NCBI GenBank assembly: GCA_001783715.1
Contig: MFNF01000001.1
Span: 58,393 to 122,392 of the forward strand
DNA: 64,000 bases
Direction: 5' to 3'
Source of the DNA: Candidatus Lambdaproteobacteria bacterium RIFOXYD2_FULL_56_26
Lineage (GTDB): Bacteria; SAR324; XYD2-FULL-50-16
Below the pieces are notes generated by a model, which saw only the letters and a program-made list of their open reading frames with translations, was not told the origin of the DNA and made no database searches. Shown one piece after another: positions 7,345 to 19,882 of the stretch (positions are counted from its first letter, which is position 1; every line of letters begins with the position of its first letter). Made by a program: the position numbers and the translations under genes.

Positions 7345-8976
7345 ATGGCCGAACAATCCGTAGGACTGGTTGAGGATTTTCAATCCCAGTTTCAAAATTT
7401 CTTCTCCGGCCTGACCACTGGCAAGAAGATTTTCCTCTTTTCCAGCCTAGGCGGTATTGTCTTAGGGCTGATCGTTTTTGTCTTCTTCACCCAACAAGTC
7501 ACCTGGGCACCCCTGGCCACCGGCCTCAAACAGGACGATGCCTCCAAGATCGTGGCCAAGCTGGACGAGCTGAACATCCAGTACGTCTTGCAGCCCGGCG
7601 GGGGTGGGATCATGGTTCCGGTGGACCAGGTGGACAAGGTCAGGCTCCAGATTGCTTCCTCGGGGTTGCAACTGGGCGGTTTGGTCGGCTTTGAGTTGTT
7701 CGACAAAAACAACTTCGGGGCCACCGAATTCCAGCAACAGGTTCAGTACAAACGGGCCTTGGAAGGAGAGCTGGCCCGATTGATCACCCAAATCGACATC
7801 ATCGAGTCCGCCAAGGTTTCGGTGGCCCTGCCCGAAAAAAGCCTGTTCATCGATGACGAGGTCAAGACCACCGCCAGCGTAGTGGTGGACATGGCCGGCA
7901 GCAACAAGCTGAACCAAAAGGGCGTGAACACCATCGTCAACTTGGTTTCCGGGGCGGTCCCCGGCTTGCAGGCCGAAGACGTGCGGGTTTCGGACTCTTC
8001 GGGCAACCTGCTCTCCAAGGGCCTTTCGGACCAGGACGGCTCCGAATCTCGGGACAAGAACTACGCCTACCTGCAACTGGTGGAACAACGGGTGGAAGCC
8101 AAGTTGTTGAGCCAATTGGAAAAGGTGACCGGCAAGGACCGGGTTGAGGTACGGGTGTCCTTGGACATGGACTTCAACATCTCCGAAACCACCGAAGACT
8201 TGGTGGACCCGGACTTGAGCGCTGTGGTCAGCGAAGAATCCACCTCCGAAAAGGCGACCGGCAGCCGCTCCATCCCCGTAGGGGTCCCTGGGGTAACCTC
8301 CAACAGCCCCGAGGTGCGGGCGGGGGCCTCGGAAATCGCCAACGTTTCGGATGTGGACAAAAAGGTCAAACGGACCAACTACGCCAACTCCAAGCGCCAT
8401 GTGATCAGCAAAAAATCCCCCGGTGGGATCAAACGGATGAGCGTGGCGGTATTGCTGGACGGCAAGTACGAATATGTCCGGGATGATGCCGGAGAGATTG
8501 TAGGTTCGCCGGTGTACAAACCCTGGTCCCCCTCGGACATCCAGATCATTGAATCGGTAGCCAAACAAAGCGTCGGCTTTAGCGCCGAACGGGGCGACAC
8601 CATTACGGTACAAAACATCCGGTTTACCAAACCTTTGGTGGAACAAGAACGGCTCAAACAAGAGCGCAGTCAGGCCACCCGCCGGTTCATCATCGATCTG
8701 GTGCGGTACGTGTTGGTTGGTTTGATCGTGATTGTGCTGGTCTTTATGGTGATCCGGCCAATGGTGATGAAGCTTTCCGCCAAACCCGAAGACCTCGACC
8801 TCCTCATGGGTCTGCCGACCACCATCGGCGAGCTGGAAGGCGAAGAGCTGGAGATCCCGACCGAAAAGGAAACCGGGATTCCGCCTCGAGACAAGATCAT
8901 CGAGATCGCCAAGCAAGACCCGCTCAAGACTGCTTCCTTGGTGCGTACTTGGCTTAAGGAGAAAAAAGGTCCCTAA
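7345..8976 (+). CDS. fliF: Flagellar M-ring protein FliF
   Basis: Two TM helices, GFELFD, RALEGELAR, ASVVV, C-terminal LVRTWL. Confidence 0.97.
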   Translation: MAEQSVGLVEDFQSQFQNFFSGLTTGKKIFLFSSLGGIVLGLIVFVFFTQQVTWAPLATGLKQDDASKIVAKLDELNIQYVLQPGGGGIMVPVDQVDKVRLQIASSGLQLGGLVGFELFDKNNFGATEFQQQVQYKRALEGELARLITQIDIIESAKVSVALPEKSLFIDDEVKTTASVVVDMAGSNKLNQKGVNTIVNLVSGAVPGLQAEDVRVSDSSGNLLSKGLSDQDGSESRDKNYAYLQLVEQRVEAKLLSQLEKVTGKDRVEVRVSLDMDFNISETTEDLVDPDLSAVVSEESTSEKATGSRSIPVGVPGVTSNSPEVRAGASEIANVSDVDKKVKRTNYANSKRHVISKKSPGGIKRMSVAVLLDGKYEYVRDDAGEIVGSPVYKPWSPSDIQIIESVAKQSVGFSAERGDTITVQNIRFTKPLVEQERLKQERSQATRRFIIDLVRYVLVGLIVIVLVFMVIRPMVMKLSAKPEDLDLLMGLPTTIGELEGEELEIPTEKETGIPPRDKIIEIAKQDPLKTASLVRTWLKEKKGP

Positions 8977-8979
8977 CCG

Positions 8980-9981
8980 ATGGAAACCAAACCCGCCTGG
9001 GAGAACCAGTTTCTCCCCCCGCAATTTGAAGACCTTACCCCAGGGGCGGCCAAGGCTGCTCCCAAGGCGGAGCCCCTGCCGGTCACGGTCAAGGACACCG
9101 AAAACGGGGTGCGGCCTTTCCGGTTGGACTCGTTGCTCAAGGATGCCAAGGCCAAGGTCCTCAAACTGGAGGCCAGCGATGCCGCAAGGTTCAGCAGCAA
9201 TCAGTTTGTTGAAGAAGGGACCCTGCTGACCAACGTTGAGGAATACGCCAAAAGGATTCGGGCCGAAGCGGACAAACAGGCGCGGCTGATTTCCCGGCAG
9301 GCCGAATTGGCCTTGTCCGAAGCGGAAGAAACCTTGGCCCACGCCCAGGTGGTGGAGTCGGAGGCCAAAAAGTCCGCTCAAACGATGATTGAAACCGCCG
9401 AGGCGACGGTCGAGAAGATCGAACGGGCGGCCTACGAAAAAGGGTATGCCGAAGGCCTGGCTCGGGGGATGGAACAGGCCCGGGTGGACAACGAACTGGC
9501 CACCGCCAAGGTGATGGACCTCCTGGCCGAGCTGCAAGACCTACGGTTGGCGCTGTTTCGGGAACATGAAACGGAGATTGTCGGGCAGGTCTTGTTGTTG
9601 GCCAAAAAAGTGGTCCACGAAGAACTGCGGACCCAGCCCGAGTTTGTGCTGAACCTGCTCAAAGGGGCGGTGCATTACCTGGAAGGGCAAGGGAAGGTCA
9701 AGATCACCTTACACCCGGTCGAATACGACTTTATCGCCAAACACCAACCCGAACTGGCCGCCTACCTCGAAGAAGGGCAGGTGATCACCCTCAAGCGCAG
9801 CGGGGAAACCTCCCCTTCCGCCCCGGTGATCGAGACGGATTTTGCGGTGGTCGAGCTTTCCTTGGCTAGGCAGTTCGAGGAGGTGGACCACCTTTTGGAA
9901 AACTGCTTGGACGAACGGCGGCAGCTGTTTGACCCTCGGTACAAAGCGGAACGGGAAGCCCAGAAGGGGACCCAAACCTGA
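8980..9981 (+). CDS. fliH: Flagellar assembly protein FliH (N-terminally extended)
   Basis: AYEKGYAEGLARG GxxxG repeats, ITLHP; lies directly before fliI. Confidence 0.85.
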   Translation: METKPAWENQFLPPQFEDLTPGAAKAAPKAEPLPVTVKDTENGVRPFRLDSLLKDAKAKVLKLEASDAARFSSNQFVEEGTLLTNVEEYAKRIRAEADKQARLISRQAELALSEAEETLAHAQVVESEAKKSAQTMIETAEATVEKIERAAYEKGYAEGLARGMEQARVDNELATAKVMDLLAELQDLRLALFREHETEIVGQVLLLAKKVVHEELRTQPEFVLNLLKGAVHYLEGQGKVKITLHPVEYDFIAKHQPELAAYLEEGQVITLKRSGETSPSAPVIETDFAVVELSLARQFEEVDHLLENCLDERRQLFDPRYKAEREAQKGTQT

Positions 9982-10015
9982 AGCTTCTTTCCACCTCCGA
10001 CCTTGGTCTAGCCTA

Positions 10016-11338
10016 ATGTTTACCTTAGAACCCTTTTCCCAAGCGATTGAACAAGCCCGCACCGAGCGCCTGGAAGGCAAGGTGGACGAGGTGGTGGGCT
10101 TTTTGATCCGAGCCCACAACCCTGGAATGCGGATCGGCGGGCGCTGTTACATCCTCAACCGCAAAACCGGGGAAAAGGTGGCCGGAGAGGCAGTTTCGAT
10201 CAAAGGGCGCAACGTGCTGGTGATGCCCCTGGGGGACATTCGGGGGATCGGCCCCGACTCGGTGATCCAGCCGACCGAAGAAAAAACCCAGGTCCCGGTA
10301 GGCCCCGAATTGCTGGGTCGCTGCCTGGACGGCACCGGGCGGCCGATCGACGACCTGGGGCCGATCTTTACCGCCCACAAGGCTAACCTTTATTCCGAAC
10401 CGATCAACCCCCTGCACCGAAGAAGGATCGAAGAGCCCCTGGACGTTGGGGTCAAGGCGATTACCGGGGTGCTGACTCCGGGCAAAGGGCAGCGGATGGC
10501 CATTTTGGCCGGTTCCGGGGTCGGGAAATCGGTCCTCTTGGGTATGATGGCCAGGAACACCACCGCCGAAATCAACGTGATTGCACTGATTGGTGAACGG
10601 GGCCGGGAGGTCCGGGAATTCATCGAACGGGACTTGGGTCCCGAAGGTTTGGCCCACAGCGTGGTGATTGCAGCGACCAGCGACCAGTCCCCCTTGGTGC
10701 GGCTCCACGGGGCCTATCTGGCGACGGCGATTGCCGAATGGTTTAGGGAACAGGGCCGGGACGTGATCCTGATGATGGACTCGGTCACCCGGTTTGCCAT
10801 GGCCCAACGGGAGATCGGCCTTGCCGTCGGCGAACCTCCGACCACCAAAGGTTATCCTCCCTCGGTTTACAGCCTCTTGCCCCGGCTCTTGGAACGGGCG
10901 GGCAACTCCAAATCCCAAGGGTCCCTGACCGGGTTTTACACCGTTCTGATCGAAGGGGACGACCCGAACGAACCGATCGGCGATGCCGTCCGTTCGATCG
11001 TAGATGGCCACATCCTTCTGAGCCGGGACATCGCCGCCCAAGGGCATTATCCGGCCATTGACGTGCTGCGCTCCAAAAGTCGGGTCATGGTGGACGTAAC
11101 CGGCAAGGTGCACCAAAAGTCCGCCAGCCGTTTGGTGCAAACCTTGGCAACCTACAAGGAAGCGGAAGACTTGATCAACATTGGGGCCTATGTTAAGGGT
11201 TCAAACCAGATGATCGATTATTCGATGAACAAAATCGGCCAAATCAACAAATTCCTACGCCAAGAGGTGGAGGAACGAGTGCCGATGATTGAAGCGGAAG
11301 CAAGCCTTGAGCAGATGTTCAAGGATTTCCCGACCTAA
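10016..11338 (+). CDS. fliI: Flagellar export ATPase FliI
   Basis: GSGVGKS Walker A, IGERGREV, MDSVTRFAMAQREIG, GEPPTTKGYPPS. Confidence 0.97.
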   Translation: MFTLEPFSQAIEQARTERLEGKVDEVVGFLIRAHNPGMRIGGRCYILNRKTGEKVAGEAVSIKGRNVLVMPLGDIRGIGPDSVIQPTEEKTQVPVGPELLGRCLDGTGRPIDDLGPIFTAHKANLYSEPINPLHRRRIEEPLDVGVKAITGVLTPGKGQRMAILAGSGVGKSVLLGMMARNTTAEINVIALIGERGREVREFIERDLGPEGLAHSVVIAATSDQSPLVRLHGAYLATAIAEWFREQGRDVILMMDSVTRFAMAQREIGLAVGEPPTTKGYPPSVYSLLPRLLERAGNSKSQGSLTGFYTVLIEGDDPNEPIGDAVRSIVDGHILLSRDIAAQGHYPAIDVLRSKSRVMVDVTGKVHQKSASRLVQTLATYKEAEDLINIGAYVKGSNQMIDYSMNKIGQINKFLRQEVEERVPMIEAEASLEQMFKDFPT

Positions 11339-11362: not shown

Positions 11363-12319
11363 ATGGGCAAAAAAAGCCGTTTGGGCGGTTGGTGGAAGGC
11401 CGCCTTGGTACTGGTTTGTGGGATAGCCCTGTTTGCCGCCGGCGGCAAGGTGGCCCTGATGGCCTATGCCGCTTTGGAGGCGAAGGGTTGCTTTCCTCCC
11501 GAGCCTTTGGTCACCATGGACGAATGGAAGGCCCAGGGCGAGGTCACCTTTGTGGCGGTTGGAGACATGGGCACCGGGGAGACCCAACAGCTGCGGGTTT
11601 CCCAAGCGATGGAACAGGTGTGCCAGGAAAAAGGTTGCGATTTTGTGCTGGGCCTGGGGGACAACTTTTATCCTGCCGGGGTCCAGGGCCTTCGAGACCC
11701 GCTGTTTGGCAATTACTTTGAAGCGGTGTACGGTCCCTTGAACCTGCCCTTTTTTACGGTGCTTGGGAACCACGACCTCAAGGGGAACATTGAGGCCCAA
11801 AGGCTTTACACCCTAGTCAGCGAACTCTGGCGGATGCCCAGTTACGATTACCGCTTTAAAGCCGGACCGGTCTCCCTGTTCGGGGTCAACTCCAACTGTG
11901 AAGCCTTTTCCTGGCCCCGGCTCCACGGCTGGCTGGCCAAAGCGCCACAGCAGGACTGGAAATTGGTTTTTACCCACCACAATCTTTATGGTTCCGGGGC
12001 GCACCAGGATGCCCCGGTTTTGGAGCGGGGCCTTTGGCAGCTGATGTTCGGCAGCAAGGTGGACCTGCACCTTTCCGGCCATGAGCACCAGTTGGAACAC
12101 CTGCAAATTGCCGGAACCGAGACCGACTATCTGATCAGCGGGGGAGGCGGTGCCGCCTACGGCGGACCCAAGGACCCCAAACCCAGGGAAGGTTCAAAAT
12201 TCCTGCACCCCGGCCAGGGCTTTTTGTGGGTCCATGCCTCGCCCAAGAGGCTGGAACTGGAGTTTTTTGACCTTTACGGAGCTTCCGTTTACCGGTATCA
12301 AAGGACAAGAAAAGAATAA
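11363..12319 (+). CDS. Membrane-anchored or exported metallophosphoesterase (purple/tartrate-resistant acid phosphatase-like)
   Basis: GDMG, GDNFY, GNHD, HH, GHEH motifs; N-terminal hydrophobic helix. Confidence 0.88.
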   Translation: MGKKSRLGGWWKAALVLVCGIALFAAGGKVALMAYAALEAKGCFPPEPLVTMDEWKAQGEVTFVAVGDMGTGETQQLRVSQAMEQVCQEKGCDFVLGLGDNFYPAGVQGLRDPLFGNYFEAVYGPLNLPFFTVLGNHDLKGNIEAQRLYTLVSELWRMPSYDYRFKAGPVSLFGVNSNCEAFSWPRLHGWLAKAPQQDWKLVFTHHNLYGSGAHQDAPVLERGLWQLMFGSKVDLHLSGHEHQLEHLQIAGTETDYLISGGGGAAYGGPKDPKPREGSKFLHPGQGFLWVHASPKRLELEFFDLYGASVYRYQRTRKE

Positions 12320-12340: not shown

Positions 12341-13303
12341 TTGACCAGACGTGAGTTCTTGCGCCTGCTTTCCACCGGTGCGCTTTCTACAGCTTTTTTA
12401 TCGACCCAGCTCGGGGAACTGCTCGCCCAAGAAGAAGGCGGACAGGCAGAGTCTTTGGTTTGGCTGACCGGCCACCACAGCCAGACCCACAGCCTGGGCC
12501 TGGTGGGGCAATCCGAATCCTTTGCCTTTTTGGGCCGTTATTTCCAGCGGTTGGAAAACGAAGGGGAAGAACCCTTGGCCGACCAACGTCCGCCCATTTT
12601 GATCTTGGAAGGGTCGTTTGCCGACGATGCCCTGGAACGGGGCAACCAGATCCTTCGGGCCTGGGTCCCCAGAGCCAAGGTCGTGGTTTTGCTCGGCAAC
12701 GAAGCGGCCTTTTCCAAGGAACAGCCGGGCGGCTACCTGGACATGATGGGCCAAGCCTTGTCGGAGGTCCCGGTTCCGGTTATCCGCCTCCCCGGCAGCC
12801 CTGCCCAACCTCGGCACCTCCTGGGCGTGCTCAACCACCTTTTGATGTACGGTCTGCCGGAGCTTGACGAGTTCCGAAGGCCCAAGATGTTCTTTGGCAC
12901 CCTGATCTGTGACCGGTGTGAATACCGGGGCCAGTTTGAGGCCGGGGACTATGTGCAGTACTTTGGGGAAAAGGAAGGCTGCCTGTACCTGCTCGGTTGC
13001 AAAGGCAAGGTAACCTACAACGATTGTCCGACCGCCAAATGGAACGGCGGCATCAACTGGTGCGTCGGGGCCGGGAGCCCTTGCACCGGTTGTTCGGAGC
13101 CCAATTTCCCCGACCACCTGAGCCTGGGCCTTTATGGCCAACTGAGCCACCGCAAGGCGGGGGTTGCCTCCGGCTGGGTGCGACATGCCGAAACCTTGGC
13201 CTACGGTGCTCTGGGGACGACGGTCGTCGGGCTGGGGGTACACCAGGGGGCAAAACGTTCGGTCGCCAGATACCGGATCAAGGTTGACGAGGAGGAAATT
13301 TGA
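12341..13303 (+). CDS. [NiFe]-hydrogenase small-subunit homolog lacking proximal Fe-S ligands (Tat substrate)
   Basis: TRREFL twin-arginine signal; CDRC, CLYLLGCKG, CP...WC...PCTGC; C-terminal anchor helix; proximal Cys positions substituted. Confidence 0.88.
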   Translation: MTRREFLRLLSTGALSTAFLSTQLGELLAQEEGGQAESLVWLTGHHSQTHSLGLVGQSESFAFLGRYFQRLENEGEEPLADQRPPILILEGSFADDALERGNQILRAWVPRAKVVVLLGNEAAFSKEQPGGYLDMMGQALSEVPVPVIRLPGSPAQPRHLLGVLNHLLMYGLPELDEFRRPKMFFGTLICDRCEYRGQFEAGDYVQYFGEKEGCLYLLGCKGKVTYNDCPTAKWNGGINWCVGAGSPCTGCSEPNFPDHLSLGLYGQLSHRKAGVASGWVRHAETLAYGALGTTVVGLGVHQGAKRSVARYRIKVDEEEI

Positions 13304-14760
13304 AGGTCTTGGTGGAACGGGTGCCCAACCTTGAGGGGTTGTTGAAGGTCGCCTACGATGGCGAACCGGGCAAAGAGAAGTATTTCCTTCAAAGTGGTCG
13401 GACCTTGCACCAGGAAGGCCGGTTGTTCGGCAAGTATCCCTTAGAAGCGGTCCAGCACACCCAAACCCTTTCGGCCAAATCCGGGGTGGCCCACGGCATT
13501 GCGGCAGTCCTGGCCTTGGAAAACTACCTGCAGTGGACCCCCACCTACAACGGCCAAAAGATGCGGCAAATCCTGCTGCACCTTTCGACCTTACATTCCC
13601 ACCTGCACCATTTTTACTTCGAGGTCCTGCCGGACTACCTGAACCAGAAGCACTTCAAGGGACAGGGGTTGCTGCGTTCCACCTACTACCCGACCTTGGC
13701 CTTGCGGGAAAAGGACGACCAGGACTTGAGCCCCGAAGCGGCAAAACAGATTTTTACCCACCTGCCCCAAGTGGTTCGGACCTTGGCGGCGCTGCAACAG
13801 GCCATGGCGCTTTTGGGTGGCAAGTACCCGGTGGTGATGAATCTGATCCCCGGCGGAGTGGCTAACACCAATCTGGGCCGGGCGCAGGGGATGAAGCTTT
13901 TGCGGATCTTGGAGTCCGCCAAGGAAATGGTCGAGGAGATTTGGCCGACGGACATCAAAACCGTGATCGCCGGGGCCACCGACCTTTTGCAAAGTTCGGA
14001 CGAGGACCAACAGCTGATCAGCTTCGGCTCCCTGCCTATTGAAAACGGCAAGGAAGAAAAAGCCTATTTCTCCCCGGGGGTTTACGTGGAAGGCAAGCTG
14101 GAGCCGTTGAACGTCACCAAGATCACCGAATCCTACGTGGACACCTACTACCGCCCGGCGGACAACCGGAGCCTGTCCAACGACCTGATCTACGACCTGA
14201 ACAAAAAAAAGGCCCACACCTGGATCAAAGCCGCCCGGTACGAAACCGACGTGGCCCTGACCGGCCCCCTGGCCCGGCTTTTGATCACCCACTACGGCGG
14301 CGGCAACGTGCAGGTTTCCGACTCCATCGCCGGGTGGATCGAAAACCTGGGCCTTTCGATCGACAAGGCGAACAGCGGAGCCGCTCGGCTTTTGGCCGGG
14401 GCCTTCGAGGGAAGGTACATCCTGCAAAACCTCTTTGACAGCCTGCTCAAGCTAGACTTTACCGGTCCGCTCAACCAGCGCAAACCCTTTGCCTTCAAGG
14501 GCCGGGGCATCGGCATGGGCATGGTGGAGGCTCCGGGCGGGGCCTTGCTGCACCAAGTGTACATTGAAGGGGGGAAAATCACCGGGTACCGGATCGTCGC
14601 TCCTTCAAACTGGAACCTTTCGCCAGGCGATGAATTCGGCAAGACCGGACTCCTGGAAGCAGGGTTAAACCGTATGGGAAAATTTGGCCCCCTGCGGCCC
14701 GAAACGGCCATTCGCTTGGCCCACAGCTACTACGCCCAGGCGTTGGACGCAACCCAGTGA
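13300..14760 (+). CDS. [NiFe]-hydrogenase large-subunit homolog lacking all Ni-Fe ligands
   Basis: Scaffold motifs NLEG, HSHLHHFY, GGKYP, WIKAARY, GPLAR, EAPGGAL.H, VAPSNWN; no Cys anywhere in 486 aa; GGAGG RBS, TTG start overlaps upstream TGA. Confidence 0.88.
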   Translation: MKVLVERVPNLEGLLKVAYDGEPGKEKYFLQSGRTLHQEGRLFGKYPLEAVQHTQTLSAKSGVAHGIAAVLALENYLQWTPTYNGQKMRQILLHLSTLHSHLHHFYFEVLPDYLNQKHFKGQGLLRSTYYPTLALREKDDQDLSPEAAKQIFTHLPQVVRTLAALQQAMALLGGKYPVVMNLIPGGVANTNLGRAQGMKLLRILESAKEMVEEIWPTDIKTVIAGATDLLQSSDEDQQLISFGSLPIENGKEEKAYFSPGVYVEGKLEPLNVTKITESYVDTYYRPADNRSLSNDLIYDLNKKKAHTWIKAARYETDVALTGPLARLLITHYGGGNVQVSDSIAGWIENLGLSIDKANSGAARLLAGAFEGRYILQNLFDSLLKLDFTGPLNQRKPFAFKGRGIGMGMVEAPGGALLHQVYIEGGKITGYRIVAPSNWNLSPGDEFGKTGLLEAGLNRMGKFGPLRPETAIRLAHSYYAQALDATQ

Positions 14761-14766
14761 GGGACT

Positions 14767-15306
14767 ATGAATCTACAAGGGTGGTTCTTCTCCCTTTATA
14801 ACTCGGCAGTGCGGCAAACCCGCCGGTTTGGGTTGCCCATTGCCATGTTGCTTTGTTACCTGACCGCCCTGGGGCTCGAACGGGCGGAGTTCCTCCCTTC
14901 TTTTGACCGCAGCGAAATGGACTTGCTGCACCGGGCTTTTGGGTTGTTCCTGTTTGCCTTGCTCCTGCTTTTGCTCTACGACCGGCTCCAAAGGAGCGGT
15001 CGGCCTAAGGTGGGGCTTTCCTCCGCCAAAAATGCGGCCAAAAAACAATTCCGTCAGATCTCCGAAAAAGGCCCCCGCCATTGGGTGGACCTGTTGTTTT
15101 TGGGCGGCTTGAGTTTGATCGTGCTCCTGGGCCTGTTGCTGCACTTCAAGACCCGGCTGGGTTGGACCGGCTGGCCGGGGCTGGAGGGCTTGGGGATCCT
15201 GCACGGCACCTTGGTCTGGTTTTTCTTGAGCGTGATCCTGGTCCGTTATTATCTGGTTTTGACCCGCTGGATGGTCTCCCTGCTTGCCTACCTGAAAGAG
15301 CGCTGA
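14767..15306 (+). CDS. Hydrogenase cytochrome b subunit homolog (4 TM; only two of four heme-ligand His)
   Basis: Four hydrophobic helices, H55 (LLHRAFG) and H146 (ILHGT); third gene of the small-large-cytb triad. Confidence 0.72.
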   Translation: MNLQGWFFSLYNSAVRQTRRFGLPIAMLLCYLTALGLERAEFLPSFDRSEMDLLHRAFGLFLFALLLLLLYDRLQRSGRPKVGLSSAKNAAKKQFRQISEKGPRHWVDLLFLGGLSLIVLLGLLLHFKTRLGWTGWPGLEGLGILHGTLVWFFLSVILVRYYLVLTRWMVSLLAYLKER

Positions 15307-17785: not shown

Positions 17786-18704
17786 GCTCCAAAACCTGCC
17801 CCGCCCCTTGATGGCCTTGGCCCCCATGGACGGGGTGACCGACCGAGCCTTCCGGCAGATTGTGCGCAAGCTCAATCCTGGGGTGTTGCTGTATTCAGAG
17901 TTCACCAACGTCAACGGGATCGTCCATTCCTCCAAGGTGCGGGAAAGGCTGCTCTTTGAGGGGGCCGAGCTGCCTTATGTGGTGCAGATCTTTGGCCGGG
18001 ACCCGTTGCTGTTTGCCCAAATTGCCCGGGAAGTCCAGGACCTGGGGATCACCGGCATCGACATCAACCTGGGCTGCCCCTCCAAGCGGGTGGTCAGTGG
18101 CGGGAACGGTGCGGCCTTGATCAAGGAACCGGACTTGGCTTTTGCGATTGTTGAAGCGACTGCAAAGGCTACGGCCCTGCCGGTGACGGTCAAAACCCGG
18201 CTGGGCTGGGCGGATGCCTCGACCCTGGTGGGCTTCGCCAAAGGGCTGGAATCCGCCGGGGCTAGCCTGATCACCGTCCATGGCCGGACCGCCAAGATGG
18301 CCTACCGAGGGGAAGCGGACTGGGAACCTATTTATGAGCTCAAGAAGGAACTGAAGATTCCGGTCCTGGGCAACGGTGACCTAAGGTCTCTGGAACAAGG
18401 AATGGAGCAGCTCAAGGACCTGGATGGCTTTATGATAGGCCGGGCGGCAGTGGGCAACCCTTGGGTCTTTTGGCCCCAGGAGCAACGAGATAAATTGACC
18501 CTCAAAGACAAGGTGGACGTGATGTTGGAGCATTTTACCCTGCTGAGACGTTACCAGTCGGAACACAAAACCCTGGTGGAGTTCCGCAAACACCTGGGCG
18601 GTTATCTGAGCGGCTTTCGGGATGCCAAGGCCCTGCGCCGGGAATTGATGGAAACCCAAACGGAACAAGACTTCACCTTAGCAGCCCTGAGGCTGGCCTC
18701 ATGA
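17778..18704 (+). CDS. dusB: tRNA-dihydrouridine synthase (DusB-like)
   Basis: LAPMDG, DINLGCP, VKTRLG, HGRT, GNGD, IGRAAVGNPW. Confidence 0.88.
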   Translation: MTKLQNLPRPLMALAPMDGVTDRAFRQIVRKLNPGVLLYSEFTNVNGIVHSSKVRERLLFEGAELPYVVQIFGRDPLLFAQIAREVQDLGITGIDINLGCPSKRVVSGGNGAALIKEPDLAFAIVEATAKATALPVTVKTRLGWADASTLVGFAKGLESAGASLITVHGRTAKMAYRGEADWEPIYELKKELKIPVLGNGDLRSLEQGMEQLKDLDGFMIGRAAVGNPWVFWPQEQRDKLTLKDKVDVMLEHFTLLRRYQSEHKTLVEFRKHLGGYLSGFRDAKALRRELMETQTEQDFTLAALRLAS

Positions 18705-19882
18705 GCGAATCGGACCTGTACCTCCGCCGAGGGGTTTCCTCGGCGAAAACCGAAGTGCACCAAGCGATTGCGGGCATGGACAAGGGGCTCTATCCGGGGG
18801 CCTTTGCCCAGGTCCTGCCCGACCTGATCGGCGGGGACCGGGATTTCTGTTTTATGATGCACGCCGATGGCGCTGGGACCAAGTCCTCTCTGGCCTACCT
18901 GTACTGGAAGGAAACCGGTGACCTTTCGGTGTTTCGGGGCATTGCCCAAGACTCCCTGGTGATGAACCTGGACGACCTCGCCTGTGTGGGGGCGCTGGAC
19001 GGTTTTGTGCTGTCGAATACCATAGGGCGCAACAAACTTCTGGTCCCCGGAGAGGTGATCAAAGAGGTGATCTTGGGTTACCAGGAACAGGTGGAGCTTT
19101 TGGCCCAAGAAGGCATCGGGATGGTCATGGCCGGAGGGGAAACCGCCGACCTGGGGGACTTGGTGCGCACCTTGGTGGTGGATTCCACCTTGGCGGTGCG
19201 GCTCAAACGGTCCCAGGTGATCGACCTGAGCCGGGTTCGCCCTGGAGATGTGATCGTCTCTTTTGCCAGTTTCGGCCAAGCGAGGTGGGAGCGGACCTAC
19301 AATTCGGGGATCGGCAGCAATGGCTTGACTGCGGCTAGGCACGACAGCCTGGACAAAAGTTATGCCGACCGTTACCCGGAAACCTATGCCCCCGAAGTGC
19401 CCCGGAACTTGGTTTACATCGGCCCCGGCAAACTGACCGACCCGCTCGAAGGCACCCCGCTCAACCTGGGCCAAGCCCTGCTTTCCCCGACCCGAACCTA
19501 CGCCCCTTTGATCAAAAAACTGGTGGCCGCCTTTGGTGGCGAGCTGCACGGCCTGATCCACTGCTCCGGCGGCGGGCAGACCAAGTGCCTCAAGTTTGGC
19601 CAGGGGATTCACTACCACAAGGACCAACTGTTTGACCTGCCCCCGGTGTTTGCTTGGATCCAAAAGCACAACCGCTACAGCCTCAAGCAGATGTTACCGG
19701 TGTACAACCTGGGGGCCCGGATGGAGGCGATCCTGCCCGGCTCTTTGGCCCAAGAAGCGGTGGAACTCTCCCGGTCTTTGGGGATTGAGGCCCGGATTTC
19801 GGGACGGCTGGAAGCCTCGGGCAGTAAGGGCAACCGTCTGACCGTCAAGCACCAAGGGGAGGAGCTTCACTTTGAAGCCTAG
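18701..19882 (+). CDS. purM: Phosphoribosylformylglycinamidine cyclo-ligase (AIR synthase), atypical long subtype
   Basis: HADGAGTK, MNLDD, GGETAD, GSNG, LLSPTRTY, HCSGGG. Confidence 0.88.
   Translation: MSESDLYLRRGVSSAKTEVHQAIAGMDKGLYPGAFAQVLPDLIGGDRDFCFMMHADGAGTKSSLAYLYWKETGDLSVFRGIAQDSLVMNLDDLACVGALDGFVLSNTIGRNKLLVPGEVIKEVILGYQEQVELLAQEGIGMVMAGGETADLGDLVRTLVVDSTLAVRLKRSQVIDLSRVRPGDVIVSFASFGQARWERTYNSGIGSNGLTAARHDSLDKSYADRYPETYAPEVPRNLVYIGPGKLTDPLEGTPLNLGQALLSPTRTYAPLIKKLVAAFGGELHGLIHCSGGGQTKCLKFGQGIHYHKDQLFDLPPVFAWIQKHNRYSLKQMLPVYNLGARMEAILPGSLAQEAVELSRSLGIEARISGRLEASGSKGNRLTVKHQGEELHFEA

What the first reader, a model, noticed from the sequence alone, without database searches (positions are those of the whole stretch)
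13300..14760. Large subunit has zero cysteines, no catalytic Arg, and stops exactly at the maturation cleavage position
Seen: L1 motif QRICGVC...H reads QTLSAKSGVAH (Cys to S58/S61). L2 motif HSFDPCxxCxxH reads HSYYAQALDATQ* (Cys to Q480/D483, terminal His to Gln). The canopy motif EAPRG reads EAPGG. The N-terminal proton-transfer Glu is retained (NLEG). Established: group 1 large subunits normally carry a C-terminal extension after CxxCxxH that is removed after Ni insertion. Inference: the gene encodes a pre-processed protein that needs no Hyp machinery. The polar S/S/Q/D set plus the His-rich HSHLHH segment could form a different ligand or metal site.
Basis: partly seen in the sequence, partly recalled or inferred. 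Interest (0 to 1): 0.78.

Follow-up and report, generated by a model that had tools for sequence, protein, structure and literature searches.

The report
Nickel-free hydrogenase look-alike membrane complex
This gene encodes a well-conserved relative of the hydrogen-splitting subunit of a periplasmic hydrogenase that has lost every metal-binding residue, so it cannot be a hydrogenase although databases name it one, and it sits in a three-gene membrane complex that still keeps two iron-sulfur clusters and probably one heme.

Summary
Window 13300-14760(+) encodes a 486-aa protein with no cysteine. It has the fold of a group 1 [NiFe]-hydrogenase large subunit (AF2 pLDDT 89.8; TM 0.81-0.88 to NiFeSe/NiFe large subunits). 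All four Ni/Fe cysteines and the canopy Arg are replaced, and the frame stops at the residue where canonical enzymes are cleaved.

It is not a relic. It belongs to one clade, SH-aLRT 100, found in 36 of 38 other genomes of three families of its phylum, and dN/dS is 0.05-0.07 in the two closest pairs.

The operon partners are remodelled the same way:
- The Tat-signal small subunit has lost the whole proximal cluster but keeps eight invariant Cys (28 of 28), enough for two all-Cys [4Fe-4S] clusters.
- The short cytochrome-b-like protein keeps only two invariant His, both predicted on the periplasmic side.

Five genomes that carry the family have no HypD and no canonical large subunit.

Best reading: a Hyp-independent, nickel-free membrane complex in which the large subunit is a cofactor-less structural partner of a short FeS/heme wire. 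The redox partner is unknown.

Only S58 and D483 are conserved, and HSHLHH is the ordinary L3 His motif.

Seven literature searches found no description of this family.

The parts
11363..12319 (+). Purple-acid-phosphatase-like (calcineurin-type) phosphoesterase with an N-terminal membrane anchor or signal. It is an operon neighbour in one subclade only, so its link to the complex is uncertain.
   Evidence: PF00149 at 57.9 bits. Best solved relatives are tartrate-resistant acid phosphatase type 5 / purple acid phosphatase, E 8.5e-25. It lies directly upstream of the small subunit in 6 of 8 loci with long context in the window's subclade and in none of 6 in the other.
12341..13303 (+). Small-subunit-like protein, 320 aa. 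It has a Tat signal, an N-domain without the proximal cluster, a C-domain with eight Cys, and a C-terminal transmembrane helix.
   Evidence: PF14720 at 96.9 bits and TIGR00391 at 137.8 bits, below its cut-off of 179.5. Its stop overlaps the large-subunit start in the sequence TTGA.
12347..12361 (+). Twin-arginine (Tat) motif RREFL, residues 3-7 of the small subunit.
   Evidence: Read from the sequence. The two Arg are invariant in 28 of 28 family small subunits.
12908..13093 (+). Eight-cysteine region, residues 190-251. The distal cluster motif reads CxxC...C...C, with the canonical His replaced by Cys. The medial cluster reads C...C...CxxC, with the canonical Pro replaced by Cys. This gives two predicted all-Cys [4Fe-4S] clusters.
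   Evidence: All eight Cys are present in 28 of 28 sequences. Where the own canonical paralogue has His and Pro, the family has Cys.
13300..14760 (+). Cys-free large-subunit-like protein, 486 aa, with a TTG start preceded by GAGGAGG.
13462..13494 (+). Former N-terminal Ni/Fe ligand motif QTLSAKSGVAH, residues 55-65.
   Evidence: Aligned to the RxCGxCxxxH motif. Ser58 is present in 46 of 46 and 10 of 14 sequences of the two subclades, and position 61 varies.
14527..14541 (+). EAPGG, residues 410-414, where the canopy Arg has become Gly.
   Evidence: Arg occurs in 0 of 60 family sequences, and E410, G414 and H418 are invariant.
14722..14760 (+). Former C-terminal ligand motif HSYYAQALDATQ followed directly by the stop codon.
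   Evidence: Position 483 is acidic in 60 of 60, and the tail beyond the last motif position is 0-2 residues in every family member.
14767..15306 (+). Short cytochrome-b-like membrane protein of four helices, 179 aa. Its ATG lies 6 nt after the large-subunit stop.
   Evidence: PF01292 at 33.4 bits against a cut-off of 30.1. It is present after the large subunit in 18 of 18 loci of the window's subclade. The third gene of the other subclade is homologous: hhalign probability 88%, E 3e-6.
14929..14931 (+). His55 of the membrane protein, at the periplasmic end of helix 2. Putative heme axial ligand.
   Evidence: One of only four invariant columns in 12 sequences from both subclades. The topology is inferred from the positive-inside rule.
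15202..15204 (+). His146 of the membrane protein, at the periplasmic end of helix 4. Putative heme axial ligand.
   Evidence: Invariant in 12 of 12. The helix-1 His and the second helix-4 His of two-heme HydC/HyaC-type proteins are not conserved here (the four-His pattern of those proteins is recalled, not tested).

Best explanation
The gene encodes the large subunit of a hydrogenase-derived complex that no longer contains nickel-iron and cannot activate H2. The three translationally coupled genes make three proteins: a Tat-exported small subunit with two all-Cys [4Fe-4S] clusters (the former medial and distal ones) and a membrane helix; the Cys-free large subunit, which carries no signal of its own and is presumably co-exported bound to the small subunit, as in canonical enzymes; and a four-helix membrane protein with probably one bis-His heme b on the periplasmic side. 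The large subunit needs no Hyp proteins and no endopeptidase, because its frame ends where the mature canonical C-terminus lies. Its most likely role is a cofactor-less structural partner, and possibly a docking surface, that keeps the small subunit foldable and exportable. The remaining short wire (FeS, FeS, heme) would link the quinone pool, or the membrane, to a periplasmic redox partner that is not yet known. Shown here: loss of all catalytic ligands and of the proximal cluster, retention of eight Cys and two His, purifying selection, a single origin, and occurrence without Hyp. Inferred: cluster and heme binding, Tat co-export, electron transfer, and the scaffold role.
For: The fold is retained: AF2 pLDDT 89.8 and pTM 0.92, and Foldseek TM 0.81-0.88 to NiFeSe/NiFe large subunits. 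The first shell and canopy are gone: there are 0 Cys; the Cys positions read S, S, Q, D; R479 becomes G413; D123 becomes S100; and the Asp of the DPC motif becomes Y478. The family is conserved. There are 47 database clusters with E <= 1.7e-66 and 41 invariant columns in 44 sequences. dN/dS is 0.053 and 0.068 in the two closest pairs and 0.20 in a third. The two subclades form one clade with SH-aLRT 100. In the phylum the family occurs in 16 of 18, 1 of 1 and 19 of 19 genomes of three families. In the small subunit, the Tat RR is present in 28 of 28, all proximal-cluster positions are non-Cys in 28 of 28, and the eight C-domain Cys are present in 28 of 28. In the third gene, H55 and H146 are two of only four invariant columns. 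The gene order small-large-membrane protein is kept in both subclades, with overlapping or 6-nt junctions. HypD was found in 0 of 5 carrier genomes, and the only PF00374 genes of large-subunit size there are the Cys-free ones.
Against: No experiment or RNA evidence exists for any member. Without the proximal cluster the wire ends at the former medial cluster, inside the small subunit, and no partner or substrate is identified, so electron transfer is plausible but unproven. The strong conservation of the former L1 region, the acidic residue at the fourth Cys position (60 of 60), the E/D at one proximal-cluster position (27 of 28) and a family-specific His159 in the small subunit (26 of 28) could mean more than scaffolding. 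I could not inspect model coordinates, so I made no pocket analysis. The small-subunit model was too poor to use.
Confidence: 0.7

Rival explanations
1. The large subunit has acquired a new, thiolate-free metal or ligand site at the old Ni-Fe position, built from Ser58, Asp483, Glu12 and His65, and is a new kind of catalytic or sensing subunit.
For: Position 483 is Asp or Glu in 60 of 60. Ser58 is present in 46 of 46 in one subclade. E12 is present in 57 of 59 and H65 in 57 of 60. The former L1 region is among the best conserved stretches. The small subunit shows a parallel change to hard ligands at the proximal site: E/D in 27 of 28 and His159 in 26 of 28.
Against: S61 and Q480 vary, and Ser58 is Gly in 4 of 14 of the other subclade. 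E12 and H65 are equally conserved in canonical enzymes, and apart from D483 almost no residue is conserved only in the family. HSHLHH is the inherited L3 motif. With no proximal cluster the site has no evident wire to the remaining clusters.
Confidence: 0.15
2. The complex is an accessory of the flagellar export apparatus or motor.
For: In the window's subclade the operon follows fliI in 8 of 8 loci with long context, with fliF and a FliH-like gene upstream in the window. In the other subclade it is divergent from an S24-type regulator followed by fliR, flhB and flhA. FlhA lies within about 6.5 kb on the same contig in at least 9 of 19 genomes (coordinates).
Against: Two single-contig carrier genomes, G005 and G006, have no FlhA. 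In G002 FlhA is 545 kb away. In the large sister family 40 of 45 genomes have FlhA but lack the complex. Related genomes share synteny by descent, so adjacency alone is weak evidence.
Confidence: 0.07
3. It is a decaying or non-functional remnant of a group 1 hydrogenase operon.
For: All catalytic residues are lost, and scores are far below the curated family cut-offs: NF033181 at 185 against 600.
Against: The frames are intact in all 30 loci examined. dN/dS is 0.05-0.07 in the two closest pairs. There are 41 invariant columns. The eight Cys and two His of the partner proteins are kept across a split at about 30-35% identity. The stop position is identical throughout.
Confidence: 0.03

Closest known systems
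Group 1a periplasmic [NiFeSe]/[NiFe] hydrogenases (HysAB of Desulfovibrio vulgaris Hildenborough, PDB 2wpn/3ze7; Desulfomicrobium baculatum, 1cc1)
   Same: These give the best curated-model matches (NF033181, NF045518) and the top structural matches. The size is similar, about 480-500 aa. Both have a Tat small subunit and a medial cluster with four Cys, the family having a Cys where its own group-1d-like paralogue has Pro. The nearest canonical neighbours in the tree also best-match these models.
   Different: The family has no Cys or Sec ligands and no canopy Arg or Asp. It has no proximal cluster. The distal cluster has Cys in place of His. There is no maturation extension. All scores are far below the model cut-offs.
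Membrane-bound group 1 hydrogenase with cytochrome b (E. coli Hyd-1 HyaABC, PDB 4gd3; Wolinella HydABC)
   Same: The gene order is small, large, cytochrome b. The small subunit has a C-terminal membrane helix (profile match over 51-329 to 4gd3_S). The membrane partner belongs to PF01292.
   Different: The membrane protein is shorter, at 179 aa, and keeps two of the four His that I recall as heme ligands in HydC, so it holds one heme at most. There is no catalytic site to feed the wire.
Hydrogenase-derived Cys-less modules of the group 4 lineage: complex I NuoB/NuoD, Ehr complexes, Mbx/Mbs (recalled)
   Same: All have a large-subunit fold kept after loss of the Ni-Fe ligands and are used for something other than H2.
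   Different: Those keep the proximal cluster (N2) next to the old active site, which has become a quinone or sulfur site, and they sit on antiporter-like membrane subunits on the cytoplasmic side. Here the proximal cluster is the one that was lost, the complex is Tat-exported, and it derives from group 1.
HupK/HoxV scaffold proteins and extension-less large subunits (sensor HoxC, CooH; recalled)
   Same: HupK/HoxV are large-subunit paralogues lacking most ligands. HoxC and CooH end at the mature C-terminus and need no protease.
   Different: HupK/HoxV are cytoplasmic, are encoded in hyp/hup clusters and have no small-subunit partner. The same genome has such a gene next to hypB. HoxC and CooH keep all four Cys.

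Membership tests
[NiFe]-hydrogenase large subunit (PF00374), as a fold and homology family | Significant sequence match and the large-subunit fold | tested here: met
   PF00374 at 175 bits. TM 0.81-0.88 to solved large subunits.
Catalytic group 1 [NiFe]/[NiFeSe] hydrogenase | Four Cys (or Sec) ligands in RxCGxC and DPCxxCxxH | tested here: not met
   0 Cys in the protein. The four positions read S58, S61, Q480 and D483. None of the 60 family sequences has Cys at any of them.
Catalytic group 1 [NiFe]/[NiFeSe] hydrogenase | Canopy Arg of the PRG motif and its two Asp partners | tested here: not met
   The Arg is G413, and Arg occurs in 0 of 60. D123 becomes S100 and the Asp of DPC becomes Y478 (the residue numbers of the reference enzyme come partly and are partly recalled).
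Catalytic group 1 [NiFe]/[NiFeSe] hydrogenase | C-terminal extension removed by a HycI/HybD-type protease after Ni insertion | tested here: not met
   The stop follows the last motif residue directly. The own canonical paralogue has 15 more residues and a protease gene beside it.
Catalytic group 1 [NiFe]/[NiFeSe] hydrogenase | Small subunit with a proximal Fe-S cluster next to the active site | tested here: not met
   All proximal-cluster Cys positions are non-Cys in 28 of 28.
Catalytic group 1 [NiFe]/[NiFeSe] hydrogenase | Tat signal on the small subunit, plus medial and distal clusters | tested here: met
   RR in 28 of 28 and eight C-domain Cys in 28 of 28. That the clusters are actually bound is inferred.
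Catalytic group 1 [NiFe]/[NiFeSe] hydrogenase | Score above curated equivalog cut-offs | tested here: not met
   NF033181 at 185 against 600; NF045518 at 157 against 780; TIGR00391 (small subunit) at 138 against 179.5.
Catalytic group 1 [NiFe]/[NiFeSe] hydrogenase | Dependence on Hyp maturation proteins | tested here: not met
   HypD in 0 of 5 carrier genomes, which are 83-98% complete. The window's own genome has HypD, serving its canonical enzyme.
Di-heme cytochrome b of membrane-bound hydrogenases (HyaC/HydC, PF01292) | Four conserved His for two hemes (pattern recalled) | tested here: inconclusive
   The PF01292 match is just above its cut-off, 33.4 against 30.1. Only two His are invariant, and the helix-1 and second helix-4 positions are not His. 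Heme binding itself cannot be tested here.
HupK/HoxV maturation scaffold | A large-subunit paralogue in a hyp/hup cluster, cytoplasmic, with no small-subunit partner | tested here: not met
   The window's gene is translationally coupled to a Tat small subunit, and no hyp gene lies nearby. A separate 404-aa paralogue lies next to hypB on another contig.
Ehr / complex-I-like (group 4 derived) modules | NuoH/NuoL-like membrane subunits, NuoB-like small subunit with the N2 cluster, cytoplasmic side | tested here: not met
   The neighbours are a phosphoesterase, a cytochrome-b-like protein and CoaE. The small subunit has a Tat signal and lacks the proximal cluster. The nearest relatives are of group 1a type.

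The most novel reading that the evidence does not exclude
The parallel replacement of thiolates by hard ligands may have created new oxygen/nitrogen-ligated metal sites in the old Ni-Fe and proximal-cluster positions. In the large subunit the changes are Ser58 and Asp/Glu483, beside the retained Glu12 and His65. In the small subunit they are Glu/Asp at one proximal-cluster position and a family-specific His159. This would make a previously unknown, Hyp-independent periplasmic metalloenzyme or redox sensor, still wired through two [4Fe-4S] clusters and a heme to the membrane, and possibly working with the adjacent purple-acid-phosphatase-like protein.
Probability: 0.1. Interest if true: 0.85.

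Novelty: new variant of a known kind. Interest (0 to 1): 0.6.

Why it matters
Public records name these genes "nickel-dependent hydrogenase large subunit" or "Ni,Fe-hydrogenase I large subunit" (names listed). Genome surveys that count PF00374 hits will therefore overstate H2-oxidising potential in this groundwater and marine phylum.

Biologically, it appears to be a group 1, Tat-exported counterpart of the step that turned group 4 hydrogenases into complex I and the Ehr complexes, but with the opposite pattern of losses: the proximal cluster is gone while the medial and distal clusters are kept.

It is also a natural test of two questions:
- Can a large subunit fold, pair and pass Tat quality control without any cofactor?
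- Why must the mature C-terminus end exactly where it does?

The function is unknown, so the finding raises a question rather than answering one.

Tried and rejected
Expression: no RNA holder was listed for the operon. Contigs of two runs labelled metatranscriptomic, from one sample and flagged as probably DNA, lie on fliI and part of the phosphoesterase gene only. This is no evidence either way.

Complex prediction: small subunit + large subunit + membrane protein gave "no answer". The score was 0.43, and a control with the large subunit replaced scored 0.44. This is neither support nor evidence against binding.

Small-subunit structure: the AF2 model had pLDDT 52.5, with the Fe-S domain below 50. 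It was unusable and I did not search with it.

Other look-ups:
- The ESM Atlas returned only generic hydrogenase clusters.
- Promoter and terminator scans gave fewer sites than shuffled sequence.
- Earlier findings of the scan have no note on this family. A word search returned Cys-less group 3c and group 4 cases only.
- The first scan for the Thermincola-type relatives found nothing. The second, with an alignment, found 7 loci.

Literature: seven searches found no description of a Cys-free group 1 or Tat-type hydrogenase-like complex. Subscription journals and supplementary files were not visible.

Rejected readings:
- Assembly artefact: the stretch is held in runs of four studies, and homologues occur in many assemblies.
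- HupK/HoxV identity and Ehr identity: see the membership tests.
Full report
**1. The observation**

Window 13300-14760(+) is an open frame of 486 codons starting at TTG. GAGGAGG lies a few bases upstream, and the start overlaps the stop of the preceding gene in the sequence TTGA. The protein has no cysteine. It matches PF00374, the nickel-dependent hydrogenase large subunit, at 175 bits. It stays far below the curated cut-offs of the NCBIfam models; the best is NF033181 at 185 bits against 600.

- The RxCGxCxxxH motif reads QTLSAKSGVAH, so the two Cys are S58 and S61.
- The PRG motif reads PGG, so the Arg is G413.
- HSFDPCLACAVH plus a 15-residue extension in the paralogue corresponds to HSYYAQALDATQ plus stop, giving Q480, D483 and Q486.
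- The Glu of NLEG (E12) is retained.

Using the constant offset of 23 between query and reference numbering, the two Asp partners of the canopy Arg are also gone: D123 becomes S100, and the Asp of DPC becomes Y478. The reference numbers are partly confirmed by passages of PMC3325256 and otherwise recalled.

**2. It is a folded, selected protein family, not a wreck**

An AlphaFold2 model built on 44 homologues has mean pLDDT 89.8 and pTM 0.92. Its best structural matches are NiFeSe and NiFe large subunits, with TM 0.81-0.88.

The word-indexed protein search found 47 clusters with E <= 1.7e-66, all 455-491 aa where complete. The next hits, at E 1e-24, are canonical enzymes of 553-591 aa. Forty-four of the family sequences align with 41 invariant columns.

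A profile search of 88 genomes of the phylum found the family in:
- 16 of 18 other genomes of the window's family;
- 1 of 1 genome of a second family;
- 19 of 19 genomes of a third family;
- 0 of 4 genomes in three small families;
- 1 of 45 genomes of the largest family. That single hit scored 156 bits, the level of canonical enzymes (the window genome's own canonical paralogue scores 138 with the same profile), and I did not inspect it residue by residue.

All 30 loci fetched have non-Cys residues at the four ligand positions and end at the same alignment column.

The exhaustive search of 1.84 billion cluster representatives gave the same picture. A set of window-type clusters and a set of third-family-type clusters all end with a tail of 0-2 residues. 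Canonical sequences instead carry Cys, Cys and Arg at the ligand and canopy positions, with longer tails.

In a maximum-likelihood tree of 78 sequences (a subset I chose: 28 family, 8 other Cys-poor, 42 canonical), the two subclades form one clade with SH-aLRT 100. Each subclade is monophyletic, at 100 and 99. The nearest neighbours best-match the NiFeSe-type models NF033181 and NF045518.

dN/dS by the NG86 method is 0.053 and 0.068 for the two closest pairs, 0.07-0.20 for three further pairs, and could not be computed for four pairs with saturated dS.

**3. What is conserved at the old active site**

The counts come from 46 window-type and 14 third-family-type sequences.

| Position | Window-type (46) | Third-family-type (14) |
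|---|---|---|
| First Cys (58) | Ser 46 | Ser 10, Gly 4 |
| Second Cys (61) | Ser 30, otherwise N/T/A/G/L | Ser 7, otherwise A/G/T |
| Third Cys (480) | Gln 29, otherwise S/H/M/N/K/G/L | Ser 14 |
| Fourth Cys (483) | Asp 40, Glu 6 | Asp 14 |
| Canopy Arg (413) | Arg 0 | Arg 0 |
| Last residue | Q 31, K 5, R 5, H 3, L 2 | H 9, Q 4, E 1 |

I compared residues conserved in both subclades with 88 canonical sequences. Almost all are the residues that canonical enzymes also conserve: E12, H65, R89, H101, Y106, D112, the PGG motif, R313, R326, R363, E410, G414, H418 and W438, among others. The only clear family-specific conserved polar residue is D483.

The HSHLHH stretch is the L3 His-rich motif HxHxxHxxHxH of membrane-bound enzymes (PMC3325256, abstract and passages). 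H99, H101 and H104 align with its first three His. H103 is an extra residue at a variable column.

So the framework is kept and the chemistry is removed. A Ser-Asp-His hydrogen-bond plug is at least as likely as a metal site, but I could not examine coordinates.

**4. The partner proteins changed in step**

The upstream gene, 12341-13303, is a small-subunit homologue. Its features:
- The Tat motif RREFL; the two Arg are present in 28 of 28 family sequences.
- No Cys at any proximal-cluster position in 28 of 28. The equivalents are S/D/T/A, H/N/S, E/D (27 of 28), and a variable residue.
- Eight invariant Cys in the C-terminal domain, 28 of 28.

Where the genome's own canonical small subunit has the distal-cluster His and the medial-cluster Pro, the family has Cys. 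This predicts two all-Cys [4Fe-4S] clusters. I recall that NiFeSe enzymes have a four-Cys medial cluster and that a Pro-to-Cys change converts the 3Fe cluster, but I did not test either point here. A C-terminal hydrophobic helix follows. A family-specific His159 (26 of 28; Val in the canonical protein) lies near the vacated cluster.

The downstream gene, 14767-15306, starts 6 nt after the large-subunit stop. It matches PF01292 just above its cut-off. It is present in 18 of 18 window-type loci. The third gene of the other subclade is homologous: hhalign probability 88%, E 3e-6.

Across 12 sequences from both subclades, only H55, G59, G122 and H146 are invariant. By the positive-inside rule both His sit at the periplasmic ends of helices 2 and 4. 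The helix-1 His and the second helix-4 His that I recall as ligands of the second heme in HydC-type proteins are not conserved. I therefore predict at most one heme b, on the periplasmic side.

**5. Independence from maturation**

The window's genome (97% complete) also has a canonical operon on another contig. Its small subunit has a CTCC-type proximal motif, its large subunit has the full motifs and an extension, and a HycI-type protease gene lies beside it. HypD is elsewhere in the genome.

Five other carrier genomes, 83-98% complete and two of them single contigs, have no HypD. Their only PF00374 genes of large-subunit size are the Cys-free ones. One genome has in addition a weak 402-aa hit.

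The exact stop position has a simple rationale, which I recall and did not test here: in mature enzymes the C-terminus is buried beside the active site, so an unprocessed extension could not be accommodated.

**6. Context**

In the window the gene order is fliF, a FliH-like gene, fliI, a purple-acid-phosphatase-like gene, small subunit, large subunit, cytochrome-b-like gene, coaE, then unrelated genes.

Among 8 window-type loci with long context:
- fliI lies upstream in 8;
- the phosphoesterase gene is adjacent in 6;
- coaE follows in 6.

In the other subclade the operon is divergent from an S24-type regulator followed by fliR, flhB and flhA. FlhA lies within about 6.5 kb in at least 9 of 19 genomes (coordinates).

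Several facts argue against a flagellar role. G005 and G006 carry the operon but have no FlhA. G002 has FlhA 545 kb away. In the sister family 40 of 45 genomes have FlhA without the operon. I treat the flagellar neighbourhood as an unexplained observation, not a function.

**7. Mechanism proposed**

Shown here:
- loss of the Ni-Fe ligands, the canopy and the proximal cluster;
- retention of eight Cys and two His in the partner proteins;
- purifying selection and a single origin;
- occurrence without Hyp.

Inferred:
- The small and large subunits still pair and cross the membrane together by Tat.
- The small subunit binds two [4Fe-4S] clusters and the membrane protein binds one heme b.
- This short wire connects the quinone pool or membrane with an unknown periplasmic partner, while the large subunit serves as a cofactor-less structural or docking subunit.

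The weak point is that the wire now ends at the former medial cluster, and no partner is identified.

**8. Comparison and novelty**

The complex works like other hydrogenase-derived, Ni-free modules: complex I NuoB/NuoD, Ehr and Mbx (recalled; earlier notes of this scan describe group 3c and group 4 cases). It differs from them in three ways:
- Lineage: it is nearest to group 1a.
- Location: it is Tat-exported and periplasmic.
- Pattern of losses: it kept the medial and distal clusters and lost the proximal one, the reverse of those modules.

It is not HupK/HoxV; the genome has a separate such paralogue next to hypB.

Seven full-text searches found no description of it. For two papers on this phylum I read only the passages that mention hydrogenases. 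One mentions only canonical group 1d enzymes in aquifer genomes (PMC9031357). The other reports an absence of hydrogenases in marine genomes (PMC4782131). Supplements and subscription journals were not visible.

I rate it a new variant of a known kind, with interest 0.6. The sequence facts are solid and would surprise a specialist moderately. The function remains open.

Noticed in passing
window 7345-11338: A flagellar export block lies directly upstream of the hydrogenase-like operon: fliF (7345-8976), a FliH-like gene (8980-9981) and fliI (within 9842-11338). No FliG match was seen in the 333-aa gene between fliF and fliI. The same adjacency to fliI occurs in 8 of 8 related loci with long context. 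The other subclade sits beside fliR, flhB and flhA.
   Followed up: partly
window 11363-12319: A membrane-anchored phosphoesterase whose best solved relatives are purple acid phosphatases (tartrate-resistant acid phosphatase type 5), a class with a redox-active di-iron centre as I recall. It is conserved directly upstream of the small subunit in the window's subclade only.
   Followed up: partly
L004:1363-2577 (own genome, contig C12): A 404-aa large-subunit paralogue with a weak PF00374 match, immediately upstream of hypB. It looks like a HupK/HoxV-type maturation scaffold for the genome's canonical hydrogenase.
   Followed up: partly
L001 (own genome, contig C26): A canonical group 1 hydrogenase operon in the same genome. 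Its small subunit has a CTCC motif at the proximal cluster, the pattern I recall from O2-tolerant enzymes. Its large subunit has full motifs and a 15-residue extension, and a HycI-type protease gene lies downstream.
   Followed up: partly
L048-L050 and proteins P0114, P0115, P0144: A separate lineage of 440-450-aa large-subunit homologues, in Thermincola and other Bacillota by record titles and names, ends just after the HSF motif, before the C-terminal CxxC. Its small subunit keeps proximal-cluster Cys, and genes that look like HypA and HypB by their N-terminal sequence (not scanned against family models) lie beside it. Other scattered Cys-poor large-subunit homologues (P0093, P0100, P0101, P0116, P0202) also exist.
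   Followed up: partly
window 18701-19882: A 393-aa AIR-synthase-family protein with only weak matches (PurM domain model at 90 bits against a cut-off of 236), lying between a Dus gene and an AMMECR1 gene. Its identity is unclear.
   Followed up: no
L035, L038 (other subclade): A helix-turn-helix plus S24 peptidase (LexA-like) gene is divergently adjacent to the hydrogenase-like operon in the two genomes scanned, heading the fliR-flhB-flhA genes in one of them. It is a candidate regulator.
   Followed up: no
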